Assembly: GCA_022561385.1 (NCBI GenBank)
Contig: JADFRG010000007.1
Span: 14,498-78,497 of the forward strand
Direction: 5' to 3'
Length of the DNA stretch: 64,000 nt
DNA from: Chloroflexota bacterium
GTDB lineage: Bacteria > Chloroflexota > Anaerolineae > Anaerolineales > E44-bin32
The stretch's first letter is position 1, and every line of letters starts with the position of its first letter. Positions 27,417-63,850 of this stretch are shown here, in pieces. A program made the position numbers and the translations under genes. The notes under the pieces are model-generated. The model had not been told where the DNA came from, ran no database searches, and was given only the letters and a program-made list of their open reading frames with translations.

Positions 27417-27649
27417 GATCCTTGAGTGGCGAGCCTTTCGAACAACTCCGCTTCGTTCGGATTCCCCAGAAACAATGTAACGCCGTCCAGCAAATAAGTC
27501 GGCACTGCAAAAACGCTATCGGGCGTTTCGCCGTTAAGTTCGATTAAGTTTACTTCCACCTGCGGCATACGTTCCCGGACCTGGTCGGCTATCTTTCGAG
27601 CCTGTTCACAGGTCTCGCAGCAGTCGTCGATGTAGATGTCGAGTCGCAT
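27413..27649 (-). CDS. Small thioredoxin/glutaredoxin-fold protein
   Basis: 78 aa with a CCETC (CxxC) motif near the N terminus and a VPTY cis-Pro-like motif. It overlaps the crp start by 4 nt. Confidence 0.65.
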
Positions 27650-52751: not shown

Positions 52752-53120
52752 ATGAAACGACCGGTCCACTTTGAGATTCTGTCCGACGACCCCGAAAAGC
52801 TGGCGGGCTTTTACGGGACCGTGTTCGGATGGGAGATCGCGACCATGGGTGGGGGTGAACAGTCTTATTGGCTGGCGACCACTGGCCCCGACGGAGAGCC
52901 CGGGATCAACGGGGGTTTCATGAACCGCGAGTTTGACCAGGCGGTGATCAACACTGTAGAGGTAGATTCACTTGAAGCCGCCACTGCCGAGATCGAAGCC
53001 GCGGGGGGCAAGCTGGTGCACGGGCCGAACGAGGTTCCTGGGGTTGGGACCCACGCCTACTTCGCCGATCCCCAAGGAATTATCTTTGGCGTAATGCAGC
53101 CCGTGACTCAAGATGATTAG
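52752..53120 (+). CDS. VOC (glyoxalase/bleomycin-resistance/dioxygenase) family protein
   Basis: 122 aa with VHFEI...FYGTVFGWEI...GTHAYFADPQGIIFGV. RBS GGGAGG. Confidence 0.8.
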   Translation: MKRPVHFEILSDDPEKLAGFYGTVFGWEIATMGGGEQSYWLATTGPDGEPGINGGFMNREFDQAVINTVEVDSLEAATAEIEAAGGKLVHGPNEVPGVGTHAYFADPQGIIFGVMQPVTQDD

Positions 53121-53412
53121 GTCTGGCTAGAGAGTCGGCTCCACGCAGTCACCGTTCACAATCTCAGCCCCCGGTTTCGATGACAGGCCGGTCCCCGCTG
53201 TTGATGCGTGGATGGTTCTAGATCGGGACCCGGGATGGATGCTACTCCGAAAACTCCTGCAAGGCTCAACTTATATTCGGGGCTCGGCCGAAGCACTAGA
53301 TTTGGCCTCGCGGTTGCGGATGCAGTCTCGTCGCGATAAGTTCATCAGACAAGCCGGGTTCTTCTGGCGAACCGCCGTATTTTCATCCGATTTGTAGGAG
53401 AGCAATCACATC

Positions 53413-53742
53413 ATGATCGCAATTCGCTCGATCAGCCTTTTTGTCGTGGCGGCGCTAGCCGAAATTTCTGGCGCTTACTTGATCTGGCAGTGGATCCGTG
53501 CCGGCAAGCCAGCCTTTTGGGGCCTGGTAGGTCTCATCGCCCTGTCGGTATACGCCGTGACACAGACTTTCCAGGAATTCAACTTCGGGCGGACTTTTGC
53601 CGCGTACGGCGGGATCTTTATTGCAACGGCACTGCTGTGGGGGTGGCTGGTAGAACGTCGAACGCCAGACCGCTGGGACTTCCTCGGGGTGAGCATTTGT
53701 CTATTAGGTGCTGCCATCATCCTCTGGGGCCCTCGCCGGTGA
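53413..53742 (+). CDS. ynfA: YnfA/UPF0060 family small membrane protein
   Basis: 109 aa, 4 TM, with the AEISGAYLIWQWIR and AYGGIFI motifs of the family. Confidence 0.8.
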   Translation: MIAIRSISLFVVAALAEISGAYLIWQWIRAGKPAFWGLVGLIALSVYAVTQTFQEFNFGRTFAAYGGIFIATALLWGWLVERRTPDRWDFLGVSICLLGAAIILWGPRR

Positions 53743-53867
53743 TATCGATGGTGGAATCCAGAGACAATCCCCAGCTGGCGAAACGAGTTACTGGATGGGC
53801 TCCAATATTTATCTTTGTGCGACTGGCTTGAGCGAACTCCACAGTTGGGGTAGTCATGTGTCGGCTA

Positions 53868-54305
53868 CTAAGCTCTGATAGCCGGGAGTAGTTCGTCTTC
53901 GATTCTTTGTTTTAGTTCGTCCCGAGCCGCGCGGAAGGCGCCTAATTTTTCGGCCTCGGACCCCACGACAGTTGAAGGATCCCTGATCGACCAGTGCCAA
54001 CGATGTTGGGCATATGGAAAGACGGGGCAGGACTCGTTGGCCTGATCGCAAACAGTAACTACATAATCAACGCGATCGTTTACAAATCCGTCCAAACTCT
54101 TCGAGACTTGATGATGGATGTCCACCCCAACCTCATCCATTGCGGCAATTGCTTCCGCGCGAACCTCACTCGCAACCGTCCCTGCGGACTGCACATAAAC
54201 GCCATCTCCGGCCAGATCTTTGAGTAGACCCTCGGCCATCTGAGACCTGGCGCTATTGTGTGTGCAAACGAAAAGCACCGTAGTTTTCGCGGACGATCTG
54301 CCCAA
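53868..54305 (-). CDS. arsC: Arsenate reductase, LMW-PTPase (thioredoxin-coupled) type
   Basis: VLFVCTHNSARSQMAEG (CX5R P-loop) plus downstream Cys residues (VTVCDQANESCP). Confidence 0.85.
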   Translation of the reverse strand: MGRSSAKTTVLFVCTHNSARSQMAEGLLKDLAGDGVYVQSAGTVASEVRAEAIAAMDEVGVDIHHQVSKSLDGFVNDRVDYVVTVCDQANESCPVFPYAQHRWHWSIRDPSTVVGSEAEKLGAFRAARDELKQRIEDELLPAIRA

Positions 54306-54551
54306 CTGGACCTCCCCTCTAGTTTAACCACGAACGGATTTTCCCATTCAAGAAAAACGGCAGCTAACCTTGATAATTTGGGGGTAAATATCGCGATTGG
54401 CGAGGAGATGTCGGCCCGGCTTCACAGAGGAAGCAGGCGCTCGGTGCCGGCTCAGGAGAAGTGAGGCGGAAAACCTACAAACTCGGCAACGCCCGTTCTC
54501 TTGCGCCCCCAGTCGTGACAGTAAATCTCCACTCAAACGCACGTGTGCTCG

Positions 54552-55649
54552 TCAATTCATACGGGTCGCGGCAATGTGTTGGGCTACGTACTGAGCATCG
54601 CGACCCACGCCGTAGAGGTCTTGAGAGGTAGCGGTGTATTGGTGCCTCATGCCAACGAAATACAGCCCAGGAGCAGCGGGCACCTGTCCGCGCTCGTGAA
54701 TCGGTTGCCCGGCCATATCGAATGTATCGTGTCTATTTAGTGGCTGGATGAAGTCGTATCGTGCTTGGAATCCGGTGCACCAAATTACGCTCAGAGACTC
54801 GAGCGGCACTGTTTCGCCGTCAGAGCAGAAAATACCGGCCGGGTTGAGCCCGCTCACCTTCCCGACAAGATTAACTCCATAGGTCTCTGCCAATTGACTG
54901 GGAGAGGGCGGCATCGTCCGGCCGCCTATGTCCGCCCGAAGTAGCTTTTTCCCCAGCCACGAATTCGGTTTGAGGTCCATGAGCCGAAACCACCTCATAA
55001 TTGTGTAAATTGGGATGCCTAGGACTTCAAAAGGAACGGTCAAGTTCCCGCTGACCGAGAGCGTGAGTTTGTCGAATCTCCCAGACCTGGCCAGGTCCTC
55101 ACATATCTGGACCCCACTGTTTCCACTGCCCACGATCAATACGTGCCCTTCCTCGATTTGGTCAGGATTTCGGTACTCGCGCGAATGAAGCTGGGGGATT
55201 GTTGATGGCAGCTCAGCGGCAACGAGAGGGAACTTGGGATTTCGAAAGGCGCCGGTGCAGATCACGACGTAGTCAGTTTCGTAGGTGAAATCTGGTGTCG
55301 CCACGCACCAGGTGTCGTGCTGAGTCTGTCTGACTGAAGTGGCCTCGGTGTGCTCACGTATCAAGGGATTGACCGCGGCAAGGTATGATTCGAAATATCG
55401 TAGGGCATCCGCTTTCATTCCCAACGCATCCCTGCTCGCTCCGGCCGCAAACTCCTCGGGGGAGCCGGGGAGCGAGTTCATCCAGTTGGCCGTGTTCATG
55501 TGGAACGAATCCCACCGACCGTACCATTCCGAGAATGCGCGGTCTTTCTCCAGGACCACGCTTTTAATTTGGCTTTGCTGTAGGAAGTAACTCGTAGCGA
55601 TGCCTGCCTGGCCACCTCCGACGATCACAGCCTCGACCGACCCTTCCAC
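54552..55649 (-). CDS. FAD/NAD(P)-dependent flavin monooxygenase-like oxidoreductase (ArsO-like by context)
   Basis: N-terminal VIVGGGQAGIA dinucleotide motif and a second GSGNSGVQI motif. It sits upstream of arsC on the same strand. Confidence 0.7.
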   Translation of the reverse strand: MEGSVEAVIVGGGQAGIATSYFLQQSQIKSVVLEKDRAFSEWYGRWDSFHMNTANWMNSLPGSPEEFAAGASRDALGMKADALRYFESYLAAVNPLIREHTEATSVRQTQHDTWCVATPDFTYETDYVVICTGAFRNPKFPLVAAELPSTIPQLHSREYRNPDQIEEGHVLIVGSGNSGVQICEDLARSGRFDKLTLSVSGNLTVPFEVLGIPIYTIMRWFRLMDLKPNSWLGKKLLRADIGGRTMPPSPSQLAETYGVNLVGKVSGLNPAGIFCSDGETVPLESLSVIWCTGFQARYDFIQPLNRHDTFDMAGQPIHERGQVPAAPGLYFVGMRHQYTATSQDLYGVGRDAQYVAQHIAATRMN

Positions 55650-56072
55650 AACCCTCGAACCCGCCGTCCTACGATTTTCCTAACCGCTGAATAAAGAGGA
55701 TAAACGCTCCGTATCGACTCGCCGCCACATATTATGCGGCAAAGTCTGCCCATTTAAGGTTACGAGCATTCCTTTCCACTCCACTGAGCTCTATCGACAA
55801 TCTACCAGGAACTTTAATTCGCAGGACTCGTGCGAGTGCCTGGGTCCGCGAATTTAGCTCATCACTAAAAATAGAAATCCAGGTGGTTCATATAGGTAGA
55901 CGAGATCAAATTTGCGATCATATCTTTCCGCGCTCGGATTCTGATCCATCCATCTCGGGGGTTGAGATTTGGTACCCGAACTTCCTCCCTCTCGGACCTG
56001 TATGGGACGCCGACTCCACCAGTGATTTCACGCAGCTGGGAACAGCTAACCGGGATGTACAGCCAGATTCCC

Positions 56073-56101
56073 TTGACAGACAGATGGGCCTACCCTATTA
56101 T
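56073..56101 (+). promoter_or_regulatory. Near-consensus sigma-70-type promoter for the mer cluster (TTGACA-17 nt-TATTAT)
   Basis: TTGACA at 56073-56078, a 17-nt spacer, and TATTAT at 56096-56101, about 70 nt upstream of merA ATG 56174. Confidence 0.55.
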
Positions 56102-56117
56102 ACCCATAGGGGGTATA
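56099..56117. promoter_or_regulatory. Inverted repeat TATACCC-N5-GGGTATA, a candidate CsoR-family operator overlapping the -10 element
   Basis: Perfect 7-bp arms. G/C-tract-centred TACCC...GGGTA repeats resemble CsoR operators as I recall them from Bacillus copZA. A CsoR-family gene lies in the same cluster. Confidence 0.5.
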
Positions 56118-56173
56118 GGGATGTAAGAAGATCGGAAGTCCCTGCATCCAAAAACATGGAAGTTGAGGAGAAT

Positions 56174-57838
56174 ATGGCAGGACAAGAGAAAATAAGTTTC
56201 GACATCCGAGGGATGACCTGTCCCTCGTGCGAGGTGCACGTTGCGAACGCAATAAAAAGCGTCGAGGGCGTGTTATCGGTCGAGATTCCCGGATGGGAAT
56301 CCTCAGAGGCGGAGGTGGTCGCCGAGCAAGGGATCGATGCCAAATCGTTTGCAGAGGCGGTTCTACAGGCAGGCTATGGAGCCAGCGTTAGGGCGCGGCA
56401 ACCAGTAGATGGAAAGACAAGCTCTAATGGAAAAGGCGATGGCCGGTTCGACCTGATGGTGATCGGAGGGGGCTCAGCCGGCTTCGCGGCCGCCATCAAA
56501 GGCGCCGAACTGGGTTTCAAAGTGGGCCTGGTGGAGGCGGGTGAGATCGGAGGCACCTGTGTGAACGTGGGGTGCATCCCGTCCAAGACCCTCATCCGGT
56601 CGGTGGAGCTGTATCACCAGGCCGGGCAAGAGAGATTCAAGGGGATCAGCACCTCCCAGGGACCGATCGACTGGCCCCAGGTTATAGATCACAAGGATGA
56701 GCTCGTACGCGATCTTCGGAAGGCGAAGTACTCGGACGTGCTGAAGGCTTATCCCGAGATCACCTATATCCAGGGTACAGCAACGCTGCGTGGGGGCAAT
56801 GAGCTGGAGATCGACGGCGAGGCGTATGCACCGGGAAAAATAATTATTGCCGCCGGCGCAAGCCCGTGGGCGCCTCCGATCCCCGGGCTCGCCGAATCTG
56901 GATACCTGGATAGCACGGCCGCCTTAGATCTCAGAGAGATCCCCGAATCGCTGATCGTGCTCGGTGCGAACGCGGTGGGCCTGGAGATCGCGCAGATCTA
57001 CGCTAGGGCAGGAACCAACGTCACGGTTTTAGAAGTGCTGCCTCGAATTGCGCCGTTTGAAGACGAGGAAATCAGTGCCGCCCTGACTGGATACTTGGAG
57101 AACGAAGGCTTACAAATTGTGACCGGATTTCAGACCGCCTCCGTGGAGAAAGCGGAAGGACGCTACACGTTGCGTGGGACCCAGGATGAGGCCGACTTGA
57201 CTTTCGAAGCTGAGCAGCTGCTGGTGGCCACGGGGCGACGCCCAAATACGACCGGTCTCGGTTTGGAAGAGGCGGGAGTCAAGCTCGGTAAGCGTGGGGA
57301 AATCGTTGTCGATGAGCACCTCGCGACCGACAATCCGGAGGTTTACGCGGTTGGCGATATCCTCGGGCGGGATATGTTTGTTTATGTTGCAGCTTACGAC
57401 GGAATCCTGGCGGCCGAGAATGCGCTAAGCCAGGCCGGCCGAGTCTACGACGCCGATTACATCGCCCGCATAACGTTCACGGACCCGCAGATCGCCTCCG
57501 CAGGGCTGACCGAGGCACAGGCCCGAGAGCGGGGCTATGAAGTTAAGGTCAGCACGCTCGAGATGAAACACGTCCCGCGTGCCCTGGCGGCGCGCGACAC
57601 CCGTGGACTTATCAAGCTGGTGGCGGACGCCTCCACAGATCGCCTGCTCGGGGCGCACATTCTCGCGCCGGAAGCAGGAGAGATGATTCAGACCGCAGTA
57701 ATGGCCATCAAGTTCGGCATAACGGTGAGTGAGATGAGGAGCATGATGTTTCCTTATCTCACCAACGCGGAAGGCCTGAAACTAGCGGTGTTGGCCTTCG
57801 ATAAAGACGTCGCCATGCTGAGCTGCTGCGCGGGGTGA
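56174..57838 (+). CDS. merA: Mercuric reductase MerA with an N-terminal HMA (NmerA) domain
   Basis: RBS GAGGAG 4 nt upstream of ATG 56174. GMTCPSC HMA motif, GGTCVNVGCIPSK redox disulfide, YVAAYDG, FPYLT (Tyr instead of His), and the C-terminal LSCCAG pair. Confidence 0.9.
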   Translation: MAGQEKISFDIRGMTCPSCEVHVANAIKSVEGVLSVEIPGWESSEAEVVAEQGIDAKSFAEAVLQAGYGASVRARQPVDGKTSSNGKGDGRFDLMVIGGGSAGFAAAIKGAELGFKVGLVEAGEIGGTCVNVGCIPSKTLIRSVELYHQAGQERFKGISTSQGPIDWPQVIDHKDELVRDLRKAKYSDVLKAYPEITYIQGTATLRGGNELEIDGEAYAPGKIIIAAGASPWAPPIPGLAESGYLDSTAALDLREIPESLIVLGANAVGLEIAQIYARAGTNVTVLEVLPRIAPFEDEEISAALTGYLENEGLQIVTGFQTASVEKAEGRYTLRGTQDEADLTFEAEQLLVATGRRPNTTGLGLEEAGVKLGKRGEIVVDEHLATDNPEVYAVGDILGRDMFVYVAAYDGILAAENALSQAGRVYDADYIARITFTDPQIASAGLTEAQARERGYEVKVSTLEMKHVPRALAARDTRGLIKLVADASTDRLLGAHILAPEAGEMIQTAVMAIKFGITVSEMRSMMFPYLTNAEGLKLAVLAFDKDVAMLSCCAG

Positions 57839-57943
57839 GACGGAAAAACCCAGGGTTCGTCGGCTGAAGCAGGAGTTGCTCGATTGGTGATAGTCCCCTT
57901 ATTGCCCCCATCCGCCGAAGTCTTTCGGATAGGAGAGAACAAA

Positions 57944-58210
57944 TTGTCGTCAACTAAATCGAACGCGGTACCGATTACATTCAAAGTAATGGGAATGAGC
58001 TGCATTGACTGCACGCCGTTGATTACAGACTATCTGAGCGCCCAGCCGGGGGTACTGGAAGCAGCGGCCGACTATGAAGGCGGGAAGGTTATGGTGACCT
58101 ATCAACCGGAGCGTACTTCGCCCGAGGACCTGGCGCGGGCCATAATCGCCTCAGGCACATCCACCGACTGGAAGCACGAATTTAACCCGATCCTGGAGCC
58201 CGCATCCTGA
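57944..58210 (+). CDS. Heavy-metal-associated (HMA) domain metallochaperone-like protein
   Basis: GMSCIDC motif in a ferredoxin-like roughly 70-aa domain. TTG 57944 is preceded by GGAGAG. The track start at 57884 is also possible. Confidence 0.7.
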   Translation: MSSTKSNAVPITFKVMGMSCIDCTPLITDYLSAQPGVLEAAADYEGGKVMVTYQPERTSPEDLARAIIASGTSTDWKHEFNPILEPAS

Positions 58211-58235
58211 TCCGCGGTTCCTCCACGAAGAGAAT

Positions 58236-59156
58236 TTGCCTGGCGGCCGTCCGGATCCTCAGCGTATTCGCCGCGTGACGTCTACTGCCGGTGATACTTC
58301 TACGCGAAAAGGAACTACGCATCGACCGATCCAAAATGGAGGGACAAGGACCTCGATAAGACCAATCCTGTCCGCCTTGGTACTCGTATTGGTGGCAACG
58401 GCGTGCAGCTCGCGCTTCCTGCCCGTCGGCGACGTCCCTGAACCAGCAGCTCAGCTCAGGGCGCAGCCTGAAGTGGAAGACCAGGCGTTGGAGGTTTCCC
58501 CGGCTGAAAGTGGTTTCTCCGGAAGCCCCAGCTCGACTCCGGACGAGATTGTTCTCAGTCCGACTCCGGTTCCGGTCGCGCCCCAGCCTGTTCCGGATTT
58601 TGTCGGACAGGAAGTGGAGGAACCCGCGGATCCCGCAGTCCTGGCCGAGATCGGGGTGTTTGCCGAGATGCGCGACAACCTGGCCAGCGGGGACCTGGCG
58701 CCGGACTTCGAAGTGCGTGCGATCGGAAACTGGACCTTCAGCCTCTCTGCCCAGCGCGGCTCCTATGTGCTCGTGGTACCGACCGCCATTGGATGCGGAG
58801 AGTGCGTCTTCACCATGAATCAGTTGGCCGCGGCCTACCCGGATTACCGTGACAAGAATTTGCAGCTGGTGCTTATAAACATGTATCCGGAGGATGAGCC
58901 TAAGTCCTGGGACGCCTATGTGGAGGCCTACCCTGATTTAGGTGCCGTATGGGGAGTGGTCTCATCGGTCAATTTTGTTGTGGACTATGACATCCGGTCG
59001 CTGGGGACGATCCTGCTGGTCGATCCGGAAGGTAAGCTGGTCTTCCGAAGCGACTTCCCACTGATCGAAGAGGAACTCCGTCAGCTCTTCGACCTGGCCA
59101 CGAGTGGAAAGTCTGAGGTCTCGGAGATCTCAAGTCCGATGCCGGTGATTATCTAA
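58236..59156 (+). CDS. TlpA/ResA-like thioredoxin-fold lipoprotein (Cys form, C-G-E-C)
   Basis: TM/lipobox LVLVATAC, a long acidic/Pro-rich linker, then SYVLVVPTAIGCGECVF and a cis-Pro-region-like GTILLVDPEGK. The start codon is uncertain. Confidence 0.7.
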   Translation: MPGGRPDPQRIRRVTSTAGDTSTRKGTTHRPIQNGGTRTSIRPILSALVLVLVATACSSRFLPVGDVPEPAAQLRAQPEVEDQALEVSPAESGFSGSPSSTPDEIVLSPTPVPVAPQPVPDFVGQEVEEPADPAVLAEIGVFAEMRDNLASGDLAPDFEVRAIGNWTFSLSAQRGSYVLVVPTAIGCGECVFTMNQLAAAYPDYRDKNLQLVLINMYPEDEPKSWDAYVEAYPDLGAVWGVVSSVNFVVDYDIRSLGTILLVDPEGKLVFRSDFPLIEEELRQLFDLATSGKSEVSEISSPMPVII

Positions 59157-59157
59157 T

Positions 59158-59988
59158 ATGACCTCTGAAGACACTCAAGCCGTCGAGCCGAGACCTACCC
59201 CTTCTGGCTGGCTATACCCCGTCGTGGGGCTGCTGGCGTTTGCGGCGATCGGCGTGGGCTCATGGATCTTCCGCTCAGGAAATCTGGCGGCGCTTCCTCT
59301 GGCCTGGGCCTTCTCGGCCGGCATGCTGGCTACGGTCAACCCCTGTGGGTGGGCCATGCTGCCTTCCTATGGAGCCTACTATCTCGGCTCGCGCGAGGCA
59401 GGTTACGAGCAGCGGCCGTTAATTCTCCGCGGCGCGGAAGGATTCCGTCTAGGGCTGCTGATGACGGCTGGCTTTCTGGCTGTATTCAGCGTGGTGGGGG
59501 CGATCATCTCGCTCGGCCTACGCGTGCTGATCCAGGCCATGCCCTTTCTTGCCATCCTGGTCGGCGCTGGATTGGTAGGTCTCGGACTGTGGCTGCTTTT
59601 CGGAGGCTCGCTGCGACTTTCCATCCCAACTCCAAAAATCCAGGCGCAGGCGCGCAATCCGAAATCAGTATTCTTGTATGGAATGGCCTACGGATTCGCC
59701 TCACTTAGCTGCACCCTGCCAATCTTTATGGTCGTGATTGGCAGCAGTCTGGCAACCGGCACGCCGGGCGAGGCGGCGGTTATGTTTGGCAGTTTCGGAG
59801 CTGGAATGGCGCTGGTCCTGATGGCGGTGGTCATCAGCATCGCGCTCGTGAAAGGAGCCATCGTCGAACAAGTACAGGCCGTGCTCCCGTACGTGCACCG
59901 GTTTGGCGCAGCACTGCTTGTGTTTGCGGGCGCCTACCTGATCTGGTATCAAGCCCGTTACTTGCCATTTTTCCTTTCCACGTTCTGA
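59158..59988 (+). CDS. ccdA: CcdA/DsbD-family transmembrane thiol-disulfide electron transporter
   Basis: Polytopic, with two membrane-embedded Cys motifs: VNPCGWAMLP and SLSCTLPIF. Confidence 0.8.
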   Translation: MTSEDTQAVEPRPTPSGWLYPVVGLLAFAAIGVGSWIFRSGNLAALPLAWAFSAGMLATVNPCGWAMLPSYGAYYLGSREAGYEQRPLILRGAEGFRLGLLMTAGFLAVFSVVGAIISLGLRVLIQAMPFLAILVGAGLVGLGLWLLFGGSLRLSIPTPKIQAQARNPKSVFLYGMAYGFASLSCTLPIFMVVIGSSLATGTPGEAAVMFGSFGAGMALVLMAVVISIALVKGAIVEQVQAVLPYVHRFGAALLVFAGAYLIWYQARYLPFFLSTF

Positions 59989-60007
59989 TAAGGCCCTATC
60001 TACGTCG

Positions 60008-60580
60008 ATGCCTGGCACTAAAAGCAAACCTAACTTACGGCCACAACGCTGGAGGCAAGCCGCACGTCGACGAGGCGTGTTGTGGGCTGTGGTGGGCGGG
60101 CTGGGTTTATTCGTGGCCTGGCAGGTGATTTCCAACCCATTGCCGACCACCAAAGCACAGTCCCTGGCCGGTCTGGCTCCGGACATTACGCTGACGACCC
60201 AACAGGGGGAATACCGCCTATCCGAGCAGAAGGGGGAGACGGTCGCGCTCTTCTTCGCGTTTGTAGGTTGACCGAGCTGCGCGCGGGAGGTTCCCGCGCT
60301 CAATCGAATTCGAGCGGAATTCGGCGTTCAGGTGGTAGCGATCAATCTCTTGCCGCAATACAACAGTCTCGAGGAGTGGCAAGCTTTTCTTGGGGAATTT
60401 GGCGCGACCGATTTCGTATGGGCCGCGGACACCTATGACCAGCTTGCTTCGCGGACTTATAACGTTCGGTCATTGGGCACCACGATCATCATAGACCGCG
60501 AGGGGCAGATGGTTTATCGGGACGAGGTGGCCAGCACGTATGAGATGTTAAAGCCGGCCGTGTTGACCGCTCTGGACTAG
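60008..60580 (+). CDS. TlpA/ResA-like membrane-anchored thioredoxin-fold protein, predicted selenoprotein (G-U-P-S-C; TGA 60269-60271 read as Sec)
   Basis: ORFs 60008-60271 and 60332-60580 share one frame with TGA as the only stop between them. The joined sequence reads ...GETVALFFAFVG-U-PSCAREVPALNRIRAEFG...GTTIIIDREGQ, which matches the FWAxWCxPCxxExP redoxin context. Confidence 0.7.
60281..60299 (+). promoter_or_regulatory. Candidate bacterial SECIS hairpin for UGA 60269
   Basis: GCGCGGG(A)-GGT-(T)CCCGCGC, a 7-8 bp GC stem with a GGU-containing loop about 17 nt after the UGA. Confidence 0.5.
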
Positions 60581-60600
60581 GGGATTGGAAGGAAGTTAAG

Positions 60601-60879
60601 ATGGAGAATTCCTGGATATCGATCAAAGGTTATGTGATGGGTGCCTTGGCCTTCATCTCCTGCCCCTGTCACCTGCCGATTACCCTGCCACTGCTTGTGG
60701 TTGTTACAGCCGGCACCGCCTTCAGCGCCTGGCTGCAAAACAACTTGTTCGCCGTCGGCGGCGCGTCGACGGTGTTTTTCGTCGGCTCCTTGGTGCTGGC
60801 AATCAGATGGAGCGGCAGGCGGGCTCGCGTCCGCCATCGTGTAGAATCGACGATGCGACCACAGAAGCTCATCAAGTAA
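60601..60879 (+). CDS. merE: MerE-like small mercury transporter
   Basis: Two TM helices. GALAFISCPCHLPITLPLL closely resembles the MerE LTCPCHLPIL motif, recalled from Tn21 MerE. Confidence 0.65.
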   Translation: MENSWISIKGYVMGALAFISCPCHLPITLPLLVVVTAGTAFSAWLQNNLFAVGGASTVFFVGSLVLAIRWSGRRARVRHRVESTMRPQKLIK

Positions 60880-60892
60880 GGGAGGTAGAAAA

Positions 60893-61198
60893 ATGTCTGT
60901 CGCCACAGCGCCACCGCTTACAACCTATCTCGATCCAGAACTGATTGGAAACCTGCAAAATCGACTCAATCGCATCGAGGGATCTGTTCGCGGCGTCAAC
61001 CGCATGCTGGAAGACCATGAAAACTGCGACGATATCGTCGTGCAGCTATCGGCGATCAAAGCTGCCGTGAATCAGGTCACGATTAAGCTGTTGGAAGGAC
61101 ACATGAACACCTGCCTGCTTGAGTGCGCGGCCACGGGCGACCTGGAAGCGCTTGAACATTTCAGGCGCTCCATGGCGCTTGTGATGAAGAACTCGTGA
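60893..61198 (+). CDS. CsoR/RcnR/FrmR-family metal-sensing transcriptional repressor (C-H-C fingerprint)
   Basis: 101 aa with L.NRLNRIEGSVRGV.RM (DUF156 signature). The ligand positions are ENC...H-x3-C (GHMNTC). Confidence 0.85.
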   Translation: MSVATAPPLTTYLDPELIGNLQNRLNRIEGSVRGVNRMLEDHENCDDIVVQLSAIKAAVNQVTIKLLEGHMNTCLLECAATGDLEALEHFRRSMALVMKNS

Positions 61199-61310
61199 GG
61201 TAGGTCTGGTCGAGATTACCAGCTAACCGGGCCCCGGGAAAACGGGATAGAGTCGGCATTGTCGGGACGGTTAGCAGTATCTATTTCGAGCGGCGGGCGC
61301 AATAAAAAAA

Positions 61311-61511
61311 GTGACGAAGACGGATGAATGTCCCTATTGCACGGAAATGCTCGCGCCGGATCTGCTGCACATCTGCCCCGTAGGATGCTGCTACGTTGAG
61401 GGGTATGAGGGCAAAGAAAAGGTCAAATGCTCATACTGTGAACTGCCGTTCGAAATCTTGGCAGGACACGCCTGTTTCGAGCTCATCGCGCTGACCGAAC
61501 CTGCGCAGTAG
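61311..61511 (+). CDS. Small Cys-rich protein (9 Cys in 66 aa; CxxC...CxxxCC...CxxC...C), function unknown
   Basis: GTG start. The ORF is followed by a strong terminator. The zinc-ribbon-like Cys spacing reads CPYC...CPVGCC...CSYC...C. Confidence 0.45.
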   Translation: MTKTDECPYCTEMLAPDLLHICPVGCCYVEGYEGKEKVKCSYCELPFEILAGHACFELIALTEPAQ

Positions 61512-61565
61512 CACGCGCATGGAGCAAGCGCTCGCGCACCGACTTCTGCAAACACCGAGCATTCA

Positions 61566-61592
61566 CTCCACCCTTCGAGGTGGAGTTTTATT
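61566..61592 (+). terminator. Rho-independent terminator ending the merA...Cys-rich operon
   Basis: CTCCACC-CTTCGA-GGTGGAG followed by TTTTATT. Confidence 0.7.
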
Positions 61593-61665
61593 ACGACTGC
61601 GCGGGGGCGAGTTTGAATCCTGCCCCTAGACGCCACCGGCACTCCGACCTATTTGGAGGATCCAG

Positions 61666-63042
61666 ATGAGCGATGCATACGATGTCGCGGTAATCGGCGC
61701 GGGACAAGGCGGTCTGCCGGCCGCACACATGGCGGCCAATTTGGGCGCCAAAGTCCTTCTCGTAGAGGATCGGGAGGTGGGCGGAACTTGAGTGAATGAG
61801 GGGTGCATCCCCACTAAGACCTTGTTAAGGTCTGCCGAAGTTATGCACTTGGTACGAGATCGATCGGCCGAGTTTGGCGTGCGCGGAATCGATCCCAAGA
61901 GTGTCTCGTTCGATCTGGCAGCCGCGGTGGCCCGAAAGGATAACATCGTGGCCGGGATCCAGGCCGGGATCTACAAAAACCTGGATCGAAACAAGAACAT
62001 CACCTTTATGAAGGGCCATGCGGAATTCACCTCACCGGTCGACATTCGGATCGACGGCACGCTGGTGACGGCCGAAAATAGCGTCCTGGCGGTTGGCTCC
62101 CAGCCTGCGCCGTACGCCATTCCCGGCCTAAAAGAGGCTGGATTCATCACAAATTACGAAGCGCTCAAGCTGGAAGAGCTCCCCAACTCCATGATTGTTA
62201 TCGGGGGCGGATACGAGGGAGTGGAGTTTGCCCAGATGTACGCTCGCTACGGTACGGCGGTCACAATGCTCGGACGTGCGCCACGCGTGATGCCTAAGGA
62301 GGAGCCCGAACTCTCTGAGAAGCTGGGCGACATACTCCGGGAGGAAGGCGTGGATCTCCACACTTCGACCGAAGTGGTTCGAGCGGGCGCGGAGAACGGC
62401 GCGCGTTTCGTTTTGGTGCGAGAGGCGGGGTCTGAGCGACGTTACGAAGCGGAGGTCTTGCTGCTGGCGGTTGGCCGCAACGCCCGAGTCGAGAATCTGG
62501 GTTTGTCAGAGGCGGGGGTGGAGATGGATGGGCCCTATGTGGGTGCAGACCGGCGCTTGCGAACGTCGGCAAGCAACATCTGGTCGCTCGGCGACGCCAA
62601 TGGCGGGCTTATGTTTACCCACCGAGCCACCTACGACGGCCCCATTGCAGCGCTCAACATCGTGAAAGCCCTGGGCCGGGAGGTGGATTACCGAGTGGTG
62701 CCGAGGGCAGTCTTTACGGAGCCTACCCTGGCGAGCGTCGGCCTGACCGAGGCCGAGGCGAGGGCTCAAGGCCATGAAGTGAGGGTAGGAACCGCGGATT
62801 TTGCCGGATCAGGTCGGGCGAAGGCCATCGGCCTGCCGGTCGGGATGGTTAAGCTGATTGCAGACGACGGCACGGGGGAGCTGCTAGGTGGCCACATCCT
62901 TGGACCCCGGGCCGACGATCTAATCCACGAAGTGGTTACCGCCATGTACAAGAAAGGTTCAGCAGAAGCGATCGCCAAATCCATACACGTGCATCCGACC
63001 CTGAGCGAGGTCGTGAAGCGGGCCGCGAAAGCACTGCGATGA
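61666..63042 (+). CDS. Class I pyridine-nucleotide disulfide oxidoreductase (Lpd/GR-like), predicted selenoprotein with Sec in the redox-active pair (GGT-U-VNEG-C-IPTK; TGA 61789-61791)
   Basis: ATG 61666 lies 5 nt after GGAGGA. Its N terminus is MSDAYDVAVIGAGQGG...LVEDREVGGT, then TGA, then in the same frame VNEGCIPTKTLL... (ORF 61792-63042). The C terminus has the HVHPTLSE His-Glu dyad and no MerA-type CC tail. Confidence 0.7.
61817..61833 (+). promoter_or_regulatory. Candidate bacterial SECIS hairpin for UGA 61789 (alternative: 61791-61815)
   Basis: AGACCTT-GTT-AAGGTCT (7 bp stem, GUU loop) lies about 33 nt after the UGA. A second possible structure, AGUG/CACU plus GGG-UGCAU-CCC, starts directly after the UGA. 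Confidence 0.4.
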
Positions 63043-63238
63043 ATCCGGGACGGTCGGCGACCACGGGCCGATCATGTGGCAACCCACCATCAAATTGGGG
63101 ACCGCCCCGGGCGCGCTGCGCCTCGGGTATGTGGTTTCCCTTCGTAGCTTAGCGGCAACGATGGAACTCTTAGAATGGTCTCATTTAGGACGCACGTAAT
63201 CGCAGTTCGCGATATGCTAGGATTTTGCGGGAGGCGAG

Positions 63239-63850
63239 ATGACCAAATCCACGCGCGAGAGAATTGAAGCAAAGAGACGCAAAGGGCGTGCACGAGGCAT
63301 AATTATCGGTGTACTTATCGCGGTTCCCGCGATCGCGGGGGTCGCGTGGCTGGCTAACCAGGCCAGCGGGCGTCGAAGCGGTGAGTTTGTTGAGATCCCG
63401 CAGGTCCAGGTAGTGGAGGTGATGAGCAGTGCGGCGCACGTCGCCGACGACACCGATCCCGGGCCCTACAATTCGGATCCTCCGACCTCAGGCAGGATGT
63501 ACGTTTCGCCAGCGGTGGCGGGGTTCAATGACGTTGGAGACGTGGAATCGTTCGGCGAATATCCAGCCGGCTCACTTGTACACAGCCTGGAGCACGGACA
63601 CGTTATCTTCTGGTACAACTGCGACGTACTCAGTCAGTCTGAGTGCGAGGCCATGAAGGACGGGATCAAGCAAGTCATACGCGCGGCCGGCACCTTTAAG
63701 GTGATCGCCTTCCCGTGGCCTTCGATCGAGGAACCGCTTGTGATGACCTCCTGGGGCCGAATGCTCCGCTTTGATGAATTTGACGCCGAGATCGCCGAGC
63801 AATTCGTAAGAAACTTCCGCCTGCAGGCCCCTGAACCGAACGCGCCTTAG
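63239..63850 (+). CDS. DUF3105 domain membrane-anchored protein
   Basis: N-terminal TM, then YNSDPPTSGRMY and LVHSLEHGHVIFWYN motifs characteristic of DUF3105. Confidence 0.75.
   Translation: MTKSTRERIEAKRRKGRARGIIIGVLIAVPAIAGVAWLANQASGRRSGEFVEIPQVQVVEVMSSAAHVADDTDPGPYNSDPPTSGRMYVSPAVAGFNDVGDVESFGEYPAGSLVHSLEHGHVIFWYNCDVLSQSECEAMKDGIKQVIRAAGTFKVIAFPWPSIEEPLVMTSWGRMLRFDEFDAEIAEQFVRNFRLQAPEPNAP

What the first reader, a model, noticed from the sequence alone, without database searches (positions are those of the whole stretch)
55650..63042. Non-canonical mercury-resistance cluster built around a CcdA/TlpA thiol-selenol relay, with two predicted selenoproteins and no MerR, MerT or MerP
Gene order read from the sequence:
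- Promoter and inverted repeat.
- merA, which has NmerA, the CVNVGC redox pair and the CCAG tail.
- An HMA protein.
- A TlpA-like lipoprotein (CGEC).
- A CcdA/DsbD-type membrane electron conduit.
- A second TlpA-like protein whose active-site Cys codon is TGA (UPSC).
- A MerE-like CPCH transporter.
- A CsoR-family repressor.
- A 9-Cys peptide.
- A terminator.
- An Lpd-like flavoprotein whose first redox-pair Cys codon is TGA.

Classical mer operons use MerR, MerT and MerP, and none of these is present here. CcdA paired with extracytoplasmic thioredoxin-like partners resembles the Scs copper-tolerance logic (ScsB/C/D) and cytochrome c maturation, not known mer biology.

My inference is an envelope Hg(II) capture or hand-off pathway. 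CcdA would keep two anchored Trx-fold proteins reduced, one thiol form and one selenol form, MerE would import the metal, and MerA would reduce it. A cytoplasmic Sec-flavoprotein may act as an additional reductant source or as a reductase for Hg-Se or Se-S adducts. Selenols bind Hg(II) very tightly, so placing Sec in a mercury locus is chemically notable. I cannot tell from here whether this architecture has been described.
Basis: partly seen in the sequence, partly recalled or inferred. Interest (0 to 1): 0.85.

Follow-up and report, generated by a model that had tools for sequence, protein, structure and literature searches.

The report
Mercury-resistance operon with two selenoproteins
A marine Chloroflexota bacterium carries a real mercury-detoxification gene cluster in which two proteins use selenocysteine, and one of them belongs to a widespread mercury-linked flavoenzyme family absent from every selenoprotein list I could search.

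Summary
Window 56073-63042 reads: sigma-70 promoter with a CsoR-type operator, merA, an HMA protein, TlpA-like (CGEC), CcdA, TlpA-like with in-frame TGA (UPSC), MerE-like, CsoR, a Cys-rich small protein, a terminator, then an Lpd-like flavoprotein with TGA at the first redox Cys ("LpdU"). The window has no MerR, MerT, MerP or MerB.

Both TGAs are very probably selenocysteine.
- LpdU: 72 loci carry TGA, and no orthologue at 50% identity or more has Cys.
- TlpA2: Sec and Cys forms alternate among species.
- Both have downstream hairpins supported by compensatory changes or frozen synonymous sites.

The architecture is conserved in many Chloroflexota MAGs, where MerR, MerB and MerC also appear.

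Staphylococcus and actinobacterial plasmid mer operons already carry TlpA+CcdA.

The new element is LpdU. It sits next to MerR, MerB, MerE or a conserved Cys-rich protein across several phyla, sometimes with no MerA in view. I did not find it in the selenoprotein catalogues I searched, and NCBIfam has no specific model for it.

Mechanism is inferred, not shown. Selenocysteine machinery could not be checked in this genome.

The parts
56073..56101 (+). sigma-70-type promoter, TTGACA-17 nt-TATTAT
   Evidence: Consensus scan gives 11 of 12 matches. It is the only promoter-like site in 55600-63300.
56099..56117 (+). CsoR-type operator: inverted repeat TATACCC-ATAGG-GGGTATA overlapping the -10 hexamer and the start-site region
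   Evidence: It is the only TACCC-N(2-9)-GGGTA site in the 64-kb window. It is conserved in population variants L002 and L013. The resemblance to known CsoR operators is from my own knowledge.
56174..57838 (+). merA, mercuric reductase with an N-terminal NmerA domain (alternative start 56156)
   Evidence: TIGR02053 scores 551.9 bits against a cutoff of 454.45. HMA domain, CVNVGC and C-terminal CCAG are present. A GAGGAG Shine-Dalgarno lies 5 nt before ATG 56174. Population pN/pS is 0.18.
57884..58210 (+). small HMA (CopZ/MerP-fold) metal-binding protein with a GMSCIDC motif; no evident signal peptide; start uncertain
   Evidence: PF00403 at E 3.9e-10. The best NCBIfam partial match is to the HMA part of MerTP. 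Gene callers give 88-108 aa in variants.
58236..59156 (+). TlpA1: extracytoplasmic TlpA/ResA-like thioredoxin-fold protein, CGEC active site, probable lipoprotein (LVATAC), long Pro/Ala-rich linker; start uncertain
   Evidence: AhpC-TSA 33.1 bits against a cutoff of 26, plus a ResA subfamily hit. Homologues with CGEC appear in the exhaustive search.
59158..59988 (+). CcdA-family membrane protein with two invariant membrane Cys (NPC at Cys63, SLSC at Cys185)
   Evidence: No direct Pfam hit. Profile A1 hits PDB 5VKV CcdA at E 9.8e-6 with both Cys motifs aligned. Homologues are annotated CcdA and some carry PF02683. Both Cys are invariant in 24 sequences. pN/pS is 0.02.
60008..60580 (+). TlpA2: membrane-anchored TlpA/ResA-like thioredoxin-fold selenoprotein, active site U-P-S-C
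   Evidence: The frame is open on both sides of the TGA. Redoxin 47.3 bits and AhpC-TSA 45.9 bits with U replaced by C. Orthologues with TGA occur in L022-L025, L042, L046-L048, L054 and L087. About 25 other loci have Cys. Full-length Cys forms such as P0245 read 'FVGCPSC'.
60269..60271 (+). UGA read as selenocysteine in TlpA2
   Evidence: It aligns with the first Cys of CxxC in homologues. merA and csoR in the same operon end in TGA, so the codon is otherwise a stop here.
60281..60299 (+). SECIS-like hairpin GCGCGGGA-GGU-UCCCGCGC, starting 10 nt after the UGA
   Evidence: Across 8 species, 96.9% of cells are paired and 3 of 8 pairs show compensatory changes. No shuffle out of 500 reaches the covariation score. 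Slid controls pair only 31-63%. Cys-form genes lack the hairpin.
60601..60879 (+). MerE-like two-helix membrane protein with an invariant CPCHLP motif
   Evidence: PF05052 39.1 bits against a cutoff of 22.8. NCBIfam MerE equivalog scores 43.6, below its cutoff of 80. CPCH is conserved in all relatives.
60893..61198 (+). CsoR-family repressor with the Cu(I)-type Cys45/His70/Cys74 triad (plus Cys78)
   Evidence: PF02583 80 bits. Orthologues lie inside mer clusters in L022-L025 and L027. Population variants show 16 synonymous and 0 non-synonymous changes.
61311..61511 (+). conserved small Cys-rich protein (CPYC...HICPxGCC...CxYC...GHxC...LTEPAQ)
   Evidence: No family hit. Orthologues lie directly upstream of LpdU in L022-L025, L029 and L108. 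It is the immediate upstream neighbour in 22 of 69 LpdU loci.
61565..61586 (+). terminator-like hairpin with a T tract, between the Cys-rich gene and LpdU
   Evidence: 8-bp stem followed by TTTATT. The scan as a whole is not above chance, so this is weak evidence.
61666..63042 (+). LpdU: group-1 flavoprotein disulfide reductase (Lpd/GR/MerA superfamily) with redox centre U-VNEG-C; keeps the HPTLSE His-Glu dyad; no C-terminal Cys pair; no Cys outside the active site
   Evidence: Translation. Pyr_redox_2 200.8 bits and Pyr_redox_dim 118.2 bits. TIGR01350 scores 422.4 and TIGR02053 scores 369.6, below cutoff. Of the 120 best homologues, 119 are cut exactly at the TGA or at the next Met. pN/pS is 0.07 upstream and 0.24 downstream of the TGA.
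61789..61791 (+). UGA read as selenocysteine in LpdU (position of the interchange Cys of CxxxxC)
   Evidence: 72 loci have TGA in the GGxU[VI]NEGCIP context. No orthologue at 50% identity or more has Cys. Cys forms exist among more distant homologues (P0038; loci below 40% identity).
61817..61833 (+). SECIS-like hairpin AGACCUU-GUU-AAGGUCU, 26 nt after the UGA
   Evidence: Two compensatory pairs in L021. In 44 distinct sequences the codons AAG-ACC-TTG-TTA-AGG show no synonymous variation, while flanking codons vary freely.
63239..63850 (+). DUF3105 protein, possibly associated with the cluster
   Evidence: PF11303 in the variants. It also follows MerR-LpdU in L160. It lies beside CcdA/TlpA on plasmid pACHL02. 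Association only.

Best explanation
This is a chromosomal mercury-detoxification operon of an uncultured marine Chloroflexota (Anaerolineae-like) bacterium.

Regulation. Transcription starts at a strong sigma-70 promoter. A CsoR-family repressor encoded in the operon probably blocks it by binding an operator over the -10 hexamer and start site, and releases on binding a thiophilic metal ion. Which metal (Hg(II), Cu(I) or both) is unknown.

Cytoplasmic steps. MerA, with its NmerA domain and C-terminal Cys pair, reduces Hg(II) to Hg(0). The small HMA protein is a cytoplasmic metal chaperone.

Envelope steps. Two anchored thioredoxin-fold proteins face outward: TlpA1 (CGEC) and TlpA2 (UPSC, selenocysteine). 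They probably bind Hg(II) and stand in for MerP. CcdA either keeps their thiol/selenol pairs reduced with cytoplasmic electrons or passes the metal itself. The MerE-like CPCH protein brings Hg(II) across the membrane. This TlpA+CcdA module is the same one found in Gram-positive mer operons that lack MerT and MerP.

LpdU. The last gene encodes an NADPH-type flavoprotein disulfide reductase in which selenocysteine replaces the substrate-facing interchange cysteine. It belongs to a large family that is almost always a selenoprotein and almost always lies beside mercury genes. It most likely works directly on mercury-bound or mercury-oxidised thiol/selenol species, possibly with the conserved Cys-rich small protein encoded just upstream as its partner.

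Shown here: gene identities, conservation of the architecture, the selenocysteine status of both codons, and the mer linkage of LpdU.
Inferred: metal specificity of CsoR, direction and cargo of the CcdA/TlpA relay, and the substrate of LpdU.
For: Gene identities.

Promoter and operator.

Conservation of the architecture. The same cluster occurs in at least 23 near-identical contigs from deep-sea metagenomes. It also occurs in distinct species: L021-L041, all Chloroflexota, Anaerolineae, Ardenticatenaceae or Caldilineaceae MAGs. There CcdA sits among MerR, MerA, MerE, TlpA, MerB and MerC.

Selenocysteine.
- TGA is conserved in TlpA2 orthologues of six lineages, with Cys in others.
- 72 LpdU loci have TGA, and no orthologue at 50% identity or more has Cys.
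- The hairpins show compensatory changes and a block of frozen synonymous sites.
- Purifying selection acts on both sides of each TGA.
- A third candidate Sec gene (WUPTC thioredoxin-like lipoprotein) lies in the same window.

mer linkage of LpdU, tested independently of CcdA. Of 69 loci, 55 hold at least one mer gene. The immediate upstream neighbours are the Cys-rich protein (22), MerR (18), MerE (7) and MerB (6).

TlpA+CcdA in Gram-positive mer operons.

Transporter usage. CcdA-type mer clusters mostly use MerE and rarely MerTP: 19 against 3 of 26. The sample is biased because many loci were selected by CcdA.
Against: - No expression, binding or activity data exist for any gene.
- The regulator is of the copper-sensing CsoR type (C-H-C triad, canonical operator). 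Hg responsiveness is therefore assumed. The operator was not found upstream of merA in relatives L022-L027.
- The window's CcdA has no direct Pfam hit.
- Nothing separates an electron-relay role for CcdA from a metal-transport role.
- Selenoenzymes are normally prime targets of Hg(II) poisoning, so a Sec enzyme induced under Hg stress is chemically awkward unless Hg species are its substrate.
- selA, selB, selC and selD were not seen. The window has only tRNA-Lys, and the rest of the genome was out of reach.
- LpdU keeps the His-Glu dyad of ordinary disulfide reductases and lacks the MerA Tyr and C-terminal Cys features, so direct Hg(II) reduction is not indicated by sequence.
Confidence: 0.6

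Rival explanations
1. CcdA and the TlpA proteins carry mercury, not electrons. TlpA1 and TlpA2 would be MerP analogues that hand Hg(II) to the two membrane cysteines of CcdA. CcdA would act as the MerT analogue and pass the ion inward by ligand exchange. MerE would be a second importer, for example for organomercurials.
For: - TlpA+CcdA occupy the slot of MerT/MerP in mer operons that lack them: the window and Staphylococcus and Rhodococcus plasmids.
- Source annotations and a review table call actinomycete CcdA and TrxA proteins 'mercury transporters' (PMC12195606).
- Both CcdA cysteines are invariant.
- CcdA-type clusters rarely contain MerTP.
Against: - CcdA family members with known function move reducing equivalents, not metals (established knowledge; solved structure 5VKV).
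- The clusters nearly always also carry a dedicated Hg importer, MerE.
- No experiment in the literature I could search shows Hg transport by a CcdA.
Confidence: 0.3
2. The module is mainly a copper or general thiophilic-metal and envelope-oxidative-stress system. It would consist of the CsoR repressor, a CopZ-like HMA protein and an Scs-like CcdA/TlpA pair. merA would merely be co-located with it.
For: - The CsoR has the Cu(I)-type C-H-C triad and a canonical CsoR-type operator.
- The HMA protein scores on CopZ models.
- CcdA/TlpA/DUF3105/DUF305 islands without merA exist on plasmid pACHL02.
- Many CcdA homologues at or below 46% identity have no mer neighbours.
Against: - The operator sits on the promoter that drives merA itself.
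- At CcdA identity of 47% or more, nearly every locus is a mer cluster with MerA, MerB, MerC or MerE.
- LpdU lies next to MerB and MerR in many lineages.
- The cluster has no copper exporter or multicopper oxidase.
Confidence: 0.08
3. The two TGA codons are real stops. The genes would be pseudogenes or split genes, so there are no selenoproteins.
For: - Gene callers split both genes in every public record.
- No Sec machinery is visible in the window.
- Folding energies of the single sequences are only about 1.8-1.9 sd below shuffles.
Against: - Both TGAs fall exactly on the catalytic Cys position.
- The frames stay open and under purifying selection on both sides.
- TGA is kept in 72 LpdU loci down to 50% identity, and in TlpA2 orthologues of six lineages.
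- The hairpins show compensatory changes and frozen synonymous sites.
Confidence: 0.02

Closest known systems
Gram-positive mer operons carrying TlpA + CcdA (S. aureus plasmid pHKS3860: merR-hyp-TlpA-CcdA-merA-FDR; Rhodococcus qingshengii pCP2: hyp-CcdA-TlpA-hyp-merA-merB-FDR)
   Same: - A TlpA-like and a CcdA-like gene lie adjacent to merA.
- There is no MerT or MerP.
- A second flavoprotein disulfide reductase follows merA or merB.
- CcdA is 34-41% identical to the window's.
   Different: - They have a MerR-type regulator, not CsoR.
- They have a single TlpA with Cys and no selenoprotein.
- Their accessory flavoproteins are Cys forms only 28-31% identical to LpdU.
- They carry small CC-motif membrane proteins instead of MerE.
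- They are plasmid-borne.
- My recollection that this is the pI258 ORF3-5 arrangement was not checked.
Classical Tn21/Tn501 mer operon (merR-T-P-(C)-A-(B)-D-E)
   Same: - MerA has NmerA, CxxxxC and a C-terminal Cys pair.
- A MerE-like CPC membrane protein is present.
- The logic is import followed by reduction.
   Different: - No MerR, MerT, MerP or MerD in the window.
- The regulator is a CsoR-family repressor.
- TlpA/CcdA and two selenoproteins are added.
CcdA-ResA/TlpA (cytochrome c maturation) and ScsBCD (copper tolerance) thiol-reducing relays
   Same: - A CcdA/DsbD-family membrane protein is encoded beside anchored extracytoplasmic thioredoxin-fold proteins with CxxC.
- The CcdA profile matches solved CcdA 5VKV.
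   Different: - There are no cytochrome c maturation genes.
- The context is mercury genes.
- One partner uses selenocysteine.
- Function is inferred by analogy only.
Known Sec-containing thiol:disulfide oxidoreductases of the Prx-like, TlpA or Redoxin type (UxxC), as listed in selenoproteome reviews (PMC13188914, PMC9312934)
   Same: - TlpA2 is a Redoxin/AhpC-TSA-fold protein with UxxC and Cys-form orthologues.
- Heavy-metal-linked selenoproteins are already on record: MerT-like, UxxU HMA and P-type ATPase.
   Different: - TlpA2 matches no selenoprotein-specific NCBIfam model above noise.
- Its fixed position next to CcdA in mer clusters is not described in the papers I searched.
Flavoprotein disulfide reductases that use selenium: animal thioredoxin reductase (C-terminal GCUG) and bacterial Sec-containing CoA-disulfide reductase/NADH oxidase type (UGxP; PMC13188914 Table 1)
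   Same: LpdU is an FAD/NAD(P)H disulfide-reductase-fold enzyme with a catalytic selenocysteine.
   Different: - In LpdU, Sec replaces the first Cys of the flavin-adjacent CxxxxC pair of a group-1 (Lpd/GR/MerA-like) enzyme.
- It has no C-terminal redox tail.
- No such family appears in the selenoprotein tables I searched.
- NCBIfam has no model for it, and public annotation truncates it.
CsoR-controlled copZA-type operons
   Same: - PF02583 repressor with the C-H-C triad.
- A G/C-tract inverted-repeat operator overlaps the promoter.
   Different: - It controls merA and mercury-type genes instead of a copper exporter.
- In some relatives it coexists with a MerR-type regulator (L022, L027).
- I found no paper describing a CsoR-regulated mer operon.

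Membership tests
MerA, mercury(II) reductase (TIGR02053) | Score above the curated equivalog cutoff | tested here: met
   551.9 bits against a cutoff of 454.45.
MerA, mercury(II) reductase (TIGR02053) | Redox-active CxxxxC, C-terminal vicinal Cys pair, NmerA GMTCxxC domain | tested here: met
   CVNVGC, a sequence ending in LSCCAG, and GMTCPSC with a PF00403 hit.
MerA, mercury(II) reductase (TIGR02053) | NADPH-dependent Hg(II) reduction | not testable with these tools
   Needs an enzyme assay.
MerA, applied to LpdU | Equivalog score; C-terminal Cys pair; Tyr in place of the His of the His-Glu dyad | tested here: not met
   369.6 bits, below 454.45. The C-terminus reads ...IHVHPTLSEVVKRAAKALR: His-Glu is retained, there is no C-terminal Cys and no NmerA domain.
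Dihydrolipoyl dehydrogenase (TIGR01350), applied to LpdU | Equivalog score above cutoff | tested here: met
   422.4 bits against 408.8 with U replaced by C, so it passes barely. The nearest solved structures are Lpd enzymes.
Dihydrolipoyl dehydrogenase (TIGR01350), applied to LpdU | Cys-x4-Cys disulfide and genomic or functional link to 2-oxoacid dehydrogenase or glycine cleavage complexes | tested here: not met
   The first Cys is replaced by UGA in 72 loci. The neighbours are MerR, MerB, MerE, MerA or the Cys-rich protein, never E1/E2 genes, in the loci surveyed.
Bacterial selenoprotein (both TlpA2 and LpdU) | In-frame UGA aligned with a catalytic Cys of homologues, with coding sequence conserved on both sides | tested here: met
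   and pN/pS.
Bacterial selenoprotein (both TlpA2 and LpdU) | UGA conserved in orthologues, and Cys-containing homologues exist | tested here: met
   LpdU: 72 loci with TGA, and Cys only in distant homologues. TlpA2: TGA in 10 species loci and Cys in about 25.
Bacterial selenoprotein (both TlpA2 and LpdU) | SECIS stem-loop shortly downstream of UGA with G in the apical loop | tested here: met
   TlpA2: 8-bp stem, GGU loop, 3 compensatory pairs. LpdU: 7-bp stem, GUU loop, 2 compensatory pairs and frozen synonymous sites. Single-sequence fold z-scores are only about -1.9.
Bacterial selenoprotein (both TlpA2 and LpdU) | selA, selB, selD and tRNA-Sec in the same genome; selenium in the protein | not testable with these tools
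   None lies in the 64-kb window. The rest of the genome could not be reached.
CcdA/DsbD family (PF02683) | Direct family-model hit | tested here: not met
   No Pfam or NCBIfam hit, even at E = 10.
CcdA/DsbD family (PF02683) | Homology to bona fide CcdA, with the two essential membrane Cys | tested here: met
   Profile against 5VKV gives E 9.8e-6 with both Cys aligned. Homologues carry PF02683 and CcdA names. Cys63 and Cys185 are invariant.
CcdA/DsbD family (PF02683) | Transfer of reducing equivalents to extracytoplasmic thioredoxin-fold partners | not testable with these tools
   Inferred only from adjacency to two anchored TlpA-like genes.
TlpA/ResA-like thiol-disulfide oxidoreductase | Thioredoxin-fold family score above cutoff, and a CxxC-type motif | tested here: met
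   TlpA1: AhpC-TSA 33.1 against 26, CGEC. TlpA2: Redoxin 47.3 against 26.6, UPSC. The NCBIfam ResA and TlpA equivalog cutoffs are not reached.
MerE | Pfam PF05052 above the gathering score, and a CPC motif in the first helix | tested here: met
   39.1 bits against 22.8. CPCHLP is invariant in relatives.
MerE | NCBIfam equivalog cutoff (NF010310) | tested here: not met
   43.6 bits against 80. Hence 'MerE-like'.
CsoR/RcnR family, Cu(I)-sensing type | PF02583 above cutoff and the x-C-H-C ligand pattern | tested here: met
   80 bits against 22.8. Cys45, His70 and Cys74 have the 25/4 spacing, conserved in 5 of 6 orthologues.
CsoR/RcnR family, Cu(I)-sensing type | Metal specificity and operator binding | not testable with these tools
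   The operator-like site is a sequence match only.
Classical MerR/MerT/MerP mer operon | Presence of merR, merT and merP | tested here: not met
   tblastn with MerR (three types), MerTP, MerB and MerC finds nothing in the window.

The most novel reading that the evidence does not exclude
LpdU would be a selenocysteine-dependent mercury-processing flavoenzyme: a second, Sec-based kind of mercuric reductase or Hg-thiolate/Hg-selenolate reductase. It would be served by the small Cys-rich protein as a detachable metal-delivery arm. In some uncultured bacteria it would take the place of MerA, in operons such as MerR-MerTP-MerB-LpdU, MerR-MerB-LpdU and MerR-LpdU-MerE that show no merA in view. Together with the Sec form of TlpA, this would mean that these bacteria use selenium on purpose as a high-affinity ligand to catch and turn over mercury.
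Probability: 0.25. Interest if true: 0.9.

Novelty: new variant of a known kind. Interest (0 to 1): 0.78.

Why it matters
Mercury kills largely by binding thiols and, even more tightly, selenols, so selenoenzymes are usually its victims. Here selenium sits inside the detoxification machinery itself.
- One selenocysteine is in an outward-facing capture protein.
- The other is in the flavin-adjacent redox centre of a reductase.

The reductase family is large: more than 70 loci here, from Chloroflexota and a Marinimicrobia MAG plus taxonomically unassigned metagenome contigs. It is cut in two in every public annotation I saw, and it is absent from the selenoprotein lists and NCBIfam models I could search.

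If it acts on mercury species, several things follow.
- It would be a new enzymatic route in the marine mercury cycle.
- It would be a biochemical link between selenium and mercury cycling.
- merA-based surveys of mercury resistance in oceans and sediments would be incomplete.

The locus also points to two further questions.
- A CsoR-family protein appears as the regulator of a mer operon.
- The TlpA+CcdA pair is a neglected, widespread alternative to MerT/MerP that has been sitting unstudied in clinical Staphylococcus plasmids.

Tried and rejected
1. A word-indexed homologue search with full-length TlpA2 (U replaced by C) found nothing. The cause is probably that Sec forms are stored as short fragments. 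An exhaustive HMMER search with the C-terminal part solved it.

3. Several related contigs seemed to lack merA or CcdA, which suggested decay of the cluster. blastn showed these are 100-nt scaffold gaps, not deletions. I dropped the pseudogene idea.

4. I looked for the CsoR-type operator upstream of merA in other species and found none with the TACCC...GGGTA pattern. The L023 upstream region does not align. Operator conservation beyond the population therefore remains unshown.

5. Single-sequence RNA folding of the regions after the UGAs is only marginally better than shuffles. The comparative evidence carries the SECIS argument.

6. I considered that LpdU is the Cys/Sec counterpart of the accessory flavoproteins in Staphylococcus and Rhodococcus mer operons. 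They are only 28-31% identical, no closer than MerA itself, so I do not equate them.

7. I considered that LpdU simply replaces MerA. Of 18 loci with at least 4 kb on both sides, 13 also have MerA. Replacement is therefore at most a minority case.

8. The MerR-type regulators next to LpdU could not be assigned to Hg specificity by NCBIfam. Only L109's passes the MerR cutoff.

9. Literature searches for CcdA+merA, CsoR+merA and Sec-containing Lpd/MerA-like enzymes returned nothing specific.

10. No search for selenocysteine machinery outside the window was possible.

Full report
**What is in the window**

- merA: best start ATG 56174, preceded by GAGGAG. It passes the MerA equivalog model (551.9 bits, cutoff 454.45) and has NmerA, CVNVGC and a C-terminal CCAG.
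- A small HMA protein follows.
- TlpA1 is a TlpA/ResA-like protein with CGEC and a lipoprotein-like N-terminus.
- The 276-aa membrane protein gives no Pfam or NCBIfam hit on its own. It is nevertheless a CcdA. Its homologues are named CcdA and some carry PF02683. Its two membrane cysteines are invariant. A profile of the family hits the solved Thermus CcdA 5VKV at E 1e-5 with both Cys motifs in register.
- TlpA2 is a second, membrane-anchored TlpA-like protein whose first active-site codon is TGA (FVG-U-PSC).
- A MerE-like CPCH protein passes the Pfam cutoff but not the NCBIfam equivalog cutoff.
- A CsoR-family repressor has the Cu(I)-type Cys/His/Cys triad.
- A 66-aa Cys-rich protein and a terminator-like hairpin follow.
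- The last gene is a 458-codon Lpd-like flavoprotein whose first redox-pair codon is TGA (GGT-U-VNEGC). I call it LpdU.

A near-consensus promoter (TTGACA-17-TATTAT, 56073-56101) is overlapped by TATACCC-ATAGG-GGGTATA (56099-56117). This is the only such inverted repeat in the 64 kb. From my own knowledge it has the form of CsoR operators.

tblastn with MerR, MerTP, MerB and MerC finds nothing anywhere in the window.

The window is chromosomal. It lies near rnpA, yidC, jag, parAB and gyrB. The closest public proteins come from Chloroflexi/Anaerolineae MAGs.

**The cluster is conserved, and it is about mercury**

The exact CcdA and CsoR proteins occur on many contigs from deep-sea metagenomes and three NCBI MAGs, 96.8-100% identical over the cluster. 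Apparent losses of merA or CcdA in some of them are scaffold gaps. These variants show purifying selection:

| Gene or segment | pN/pS |
|---|---|
| merA | 0.18 |
| CcdA | 0.02 |
| CsoR | 0.00 |
| LpdU upstream of the TGA | 0.07 |
| LpdU downstream of the TGA | 0.24 |

A scan of species-representative genomes with a CcdA alignment gave 80 loci. Wherever the CcdA is at least 47% identical (L021-L041; Chloroflexota, Anaerolineae, Ardenticatenaceae, Caldilineaceae), it sits in a mer cluster with combinations of MerR, MerA, MerE, TlpA, MerB, MerC and LpdU. In relatives, MerE is sometimes fused to a thioredoxin-like domain. CsoR is inside the cluster in the window, L022-L025 and L027. L022 and L027 have a MerR-type regulator as well.

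**Both TGAs are selenocysteine codons**

Other genes of the operon end in TGA (merA, csoR), so the codon is normally a stop here.

LpdU:
- Of the 120 best database homologues (98% to 60% identity), 119 begin exactly at the codon after the TGA or at the next Met. One full-length form, P0038, has Cys.
- In loci fetched from genomes and metagenomes, 72 have TGA in the GGxU[VI]NEGCIP context. No orthologue at 50% identity or more has Cys. Cys appears only in homologues below 40% identity.
- Twenty-six nucleotides after the UGA lies the hairpin AGACCUU-GUU-AAGGUCU. L021 keeps it through two double changes.
- In 44 distinct sequences the five codons forming the hairpin show no synonymous variation, while neighbouring codons vary freely.

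TlpA2:
- The TGA is kept in L022-L025 and in loci from a deltaproteobacterium, Rubrobacteraceae, Dehalococcoidia, Methylomirabilia and a Pseudomonadota MAG. About 25 other CcdA-adjacent TlpA genes have Cys.
- The exhaustive search found C-terminal fragments (cut Sec forms) and full-length Cys forms with the same surroundings, for example 'FVGCPSC'.
- Ten nucleotides after the UGA an 8-bp stem with a GGU/GGC loop is 96.9% paired in eight species. Three pairs are compensated. The hairpin is absent from Cys forms.

A third candidate lies elsewhere in the window: a thioredoxin-like lipoprotein with FFAFW-U-PTC and TGA at 28231.

What is missing is the machinery. There is no tRNA-Sec or sel gene in the window, and I could not search the rest of the genome.

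**What is already known, and what is not**

It is not.
- The window's CcdA finds plasmid homologues in 39 Staphylococcus and many actinobacterial records.
- In S. aureus pHKS3860 the order is merR-hyp-TlpA-CcdA-merA-flavoprotein.
- In Rhodococcus pCP2 it is hyp-CcdA-TlpA-hyp-merA-merB-flavoprotein.
- A 2025 review table lists actinomycete CcdA and TrxA proteins as mercury transporters (PMC12195606).

So the TlpA+CcdA module is an existing, little-studied alternative to MerT/MerP.

Sec-containing Prx-like, TlpA or Redoxin proteins (UxxC) and several metal-linked selenoproteins are also on record (PMC13188914). TlpA2 is therefore a new member of a known kind.

LpdU is different. Term searches of two selenoproteome reviews, the GOS selenoproteome paper and the deep-Sep paper show no group-1 (Lpd/GR/MerA-type) flavoprotein with U-x4-C. 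NCBIfam release 20 has no specific model. NCBI annotates it as a truncated 'NAD(P)/FAD-dependent oxidoreductase'. I found no paper on a CsoR-controlled mer operon either. These are limits of what I could search, not proof of absence.

**LpdU is a mer gene in its own right**

I retrieved loci through LpdU itself, so there is no CcdA bias. Of 69 non-window loci, 55 hold at least one mer gene:

| Gene in the same locus | Loci |
|---|---|
| MerR-type | 35 |
| MerE | 27 |
| MerB | 21 |
| MerA | 19 |
| MerTP | 6 |

Most of the remaining loci are very short contigs. The gene directly upstream is:

| Immediate upstream neighbour | Loci |
|---|---|
| Cys-rich small protein | 22 |
| MerR | 18 |
| MerE | 7 |
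| MerB | 6 |

Examples:
- A Marinimicrobia MAG has MerR-MerB-x-LpdU with no MerA in 16.5 kb.
- L130 has MerR-MerTP-MerB-LpdU.
- L148 and L149 have MerR-LpdU-MerE.
- L160 has MerR-LpdU beside an integrase.

Of 18 loci with at least 4 kb on each side, 13 also have MerA and 5 do not.

By sequence LpdU is a disulfide reductase, not a MerA.
- It keeps HPTLSE (the His-Glu dyad).
- It lacks the C-terminal Cys pair and NmerA.
- It scores below the MerA cutoff and just above the Lpd cutoff.
- It has no cysteine outside the active site.
- From established knowledge of glutathione reductase and Lpd, selenocysteine replaces the interchange residue, the one that meets the substrate.

**How it most likely works**

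Inferred steps:
1. CsoR holds the promoter shut until a thiophilic metal binds.
2. TlpA1 and Sec-TlpA2 catch Hg(II) outside the membrane.
3. CcdA keeps them reduced or relays the metal.
4. MerE imports Hg(II).
5. The HMA protein and NmerA feed MerA, which makes Hg(0).
6. LpdU, perhaps with the Cys-rich protein, uses NADPH to process Hg-bound or Hg-oxidised thiol/selenol species.

The main rival is that CcdA and TlpA move mercury itself, as MerT/MerP analogues. The data cannot separate the two. A copper-centred reading is unlikely given the neighbours. A pseudogene reading is excluded for practical purposes.

**Verdict**

The cluster is a new variant of a known kind of system. Its most interesting part is a widespread, apparently uncatalogued, mer-linked selenoflavoprotein.

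Noticed in passing
window 27853-28473 (+), TGA at 28231-28233: A third candidate selenoprotein. It is a thioredoxin-like lipoprotein with an in-frame TGA in the motif FFAFW-U-PTC. It hits the thioredoxin model TIGR01068 (45.6 bits) and weakly hits the Rcas_1661 (seleno)lipoprotein family. A hairpin GCCCGU-CGUGC-ACGGGC lies 20 nt downstream, but the fold is not better than shuffles (z = -0.3). Orthologues were not examined.
   Followed up: partly
window 27413-27649 (-) and 26718-27416 (-): A small MJ0307-type thioredoxin-like protein with an overloaded CCETC motif lies next to a probable Crp/Fnr-type regulator, directly beside the candidate Sec thioredoxin gene. My assignment of 26718-27416 as Crp/Fnr-type is by eye from the translated sequence; no family search was run on it.
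   Followed up: no
window 52752-55649: A metal(loid) island lies upstream of the mer cluster. It holds a glyoxalase/VOC protein, UPF0060 (YnfA-like), a thioredoxin-type arsenate reductase ArsC (53868-54305, -) and a flavin monooxygenase related to the ArsO and MSMEG_0569 families (54552-55649, -). The monooxygenase is divergent from the mer promoter.
   Followed up: partly
window 55650-56072: About 420 bp of apparently non-coding sequence lies between the divergent monooxygenase gene and the mer promoter. Its only ORF is an in-frame 5' extension of merA without homology. Its function is unexplained.
   Followed up: no
window 63239-63850; L160 12309-12893; L104 3638-4231: A DUF3105 protein recurs next to this gene set. 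It follows LpdU in the window, follows MerR-LpdU-(P-type ATPase fragment) in L160, and sits beside CcdA/TlpA/DUF305 on Pseudarthrobacter plasmid pACHL02.
   Followed up: partly
L021 10732-11241; L022 11295-11798: In relatives the MerE-like protein is fused to a C-terminal thioredoxin/glutaredoxin-like domain (Thioredoxin_3, CSSC motif). This suggests a built-in acceptor for imported Hg(II).
   Followed up: partly
L107 4823-7559; L130 125-3217; L148, L149, L160: These operons have LpdU in the place where merA is expected: MerR-MerB-x-LpdU in a Marinimicrobia MAG, MerR-MerTP-MerB-LpdU, MerR-LpdU-MerE, and MerR-LpdU next to an integrase. No merA is present in the sequence available.
   Followed up: partly
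L105 10277-11626; L106 7461-8807: Staphylococcus and Rhodococcus plasmid mer operons with TlpA+CcdA also end with an uncharacterised 448-449-aa flavoprotein disulfide reductase. These are Cys forms (GGTCALRGC and GGECAYWAC), only 28-31% identical to LpdU.
   Followed up: partly
L106 4232-4570; L105 5561-5983: Small membrane proteins with a CC pair in a helix and a C-terminal DCC or CCH motif precede TlpA/CcdA in the Gram-positive mer operons. They may be the counterpart of MerE there.
   Followed up: no
window 58236-59156: TlpA1 shows 4 non-synonymous and 1 synonymous change among population variants (pN/pS 1.35). The counts are too few to interpret. Gene callers disagree on its start (222-326 aa).
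   Followed up: no
L022 1743-3901: The relative's contig carries a glutaredoxin-fused thioredoxin-reductase-like flavoprotein, a peroxiredoxin and a weak GrdB-like hit just upstream of its mer cluster.
   Followed up: no
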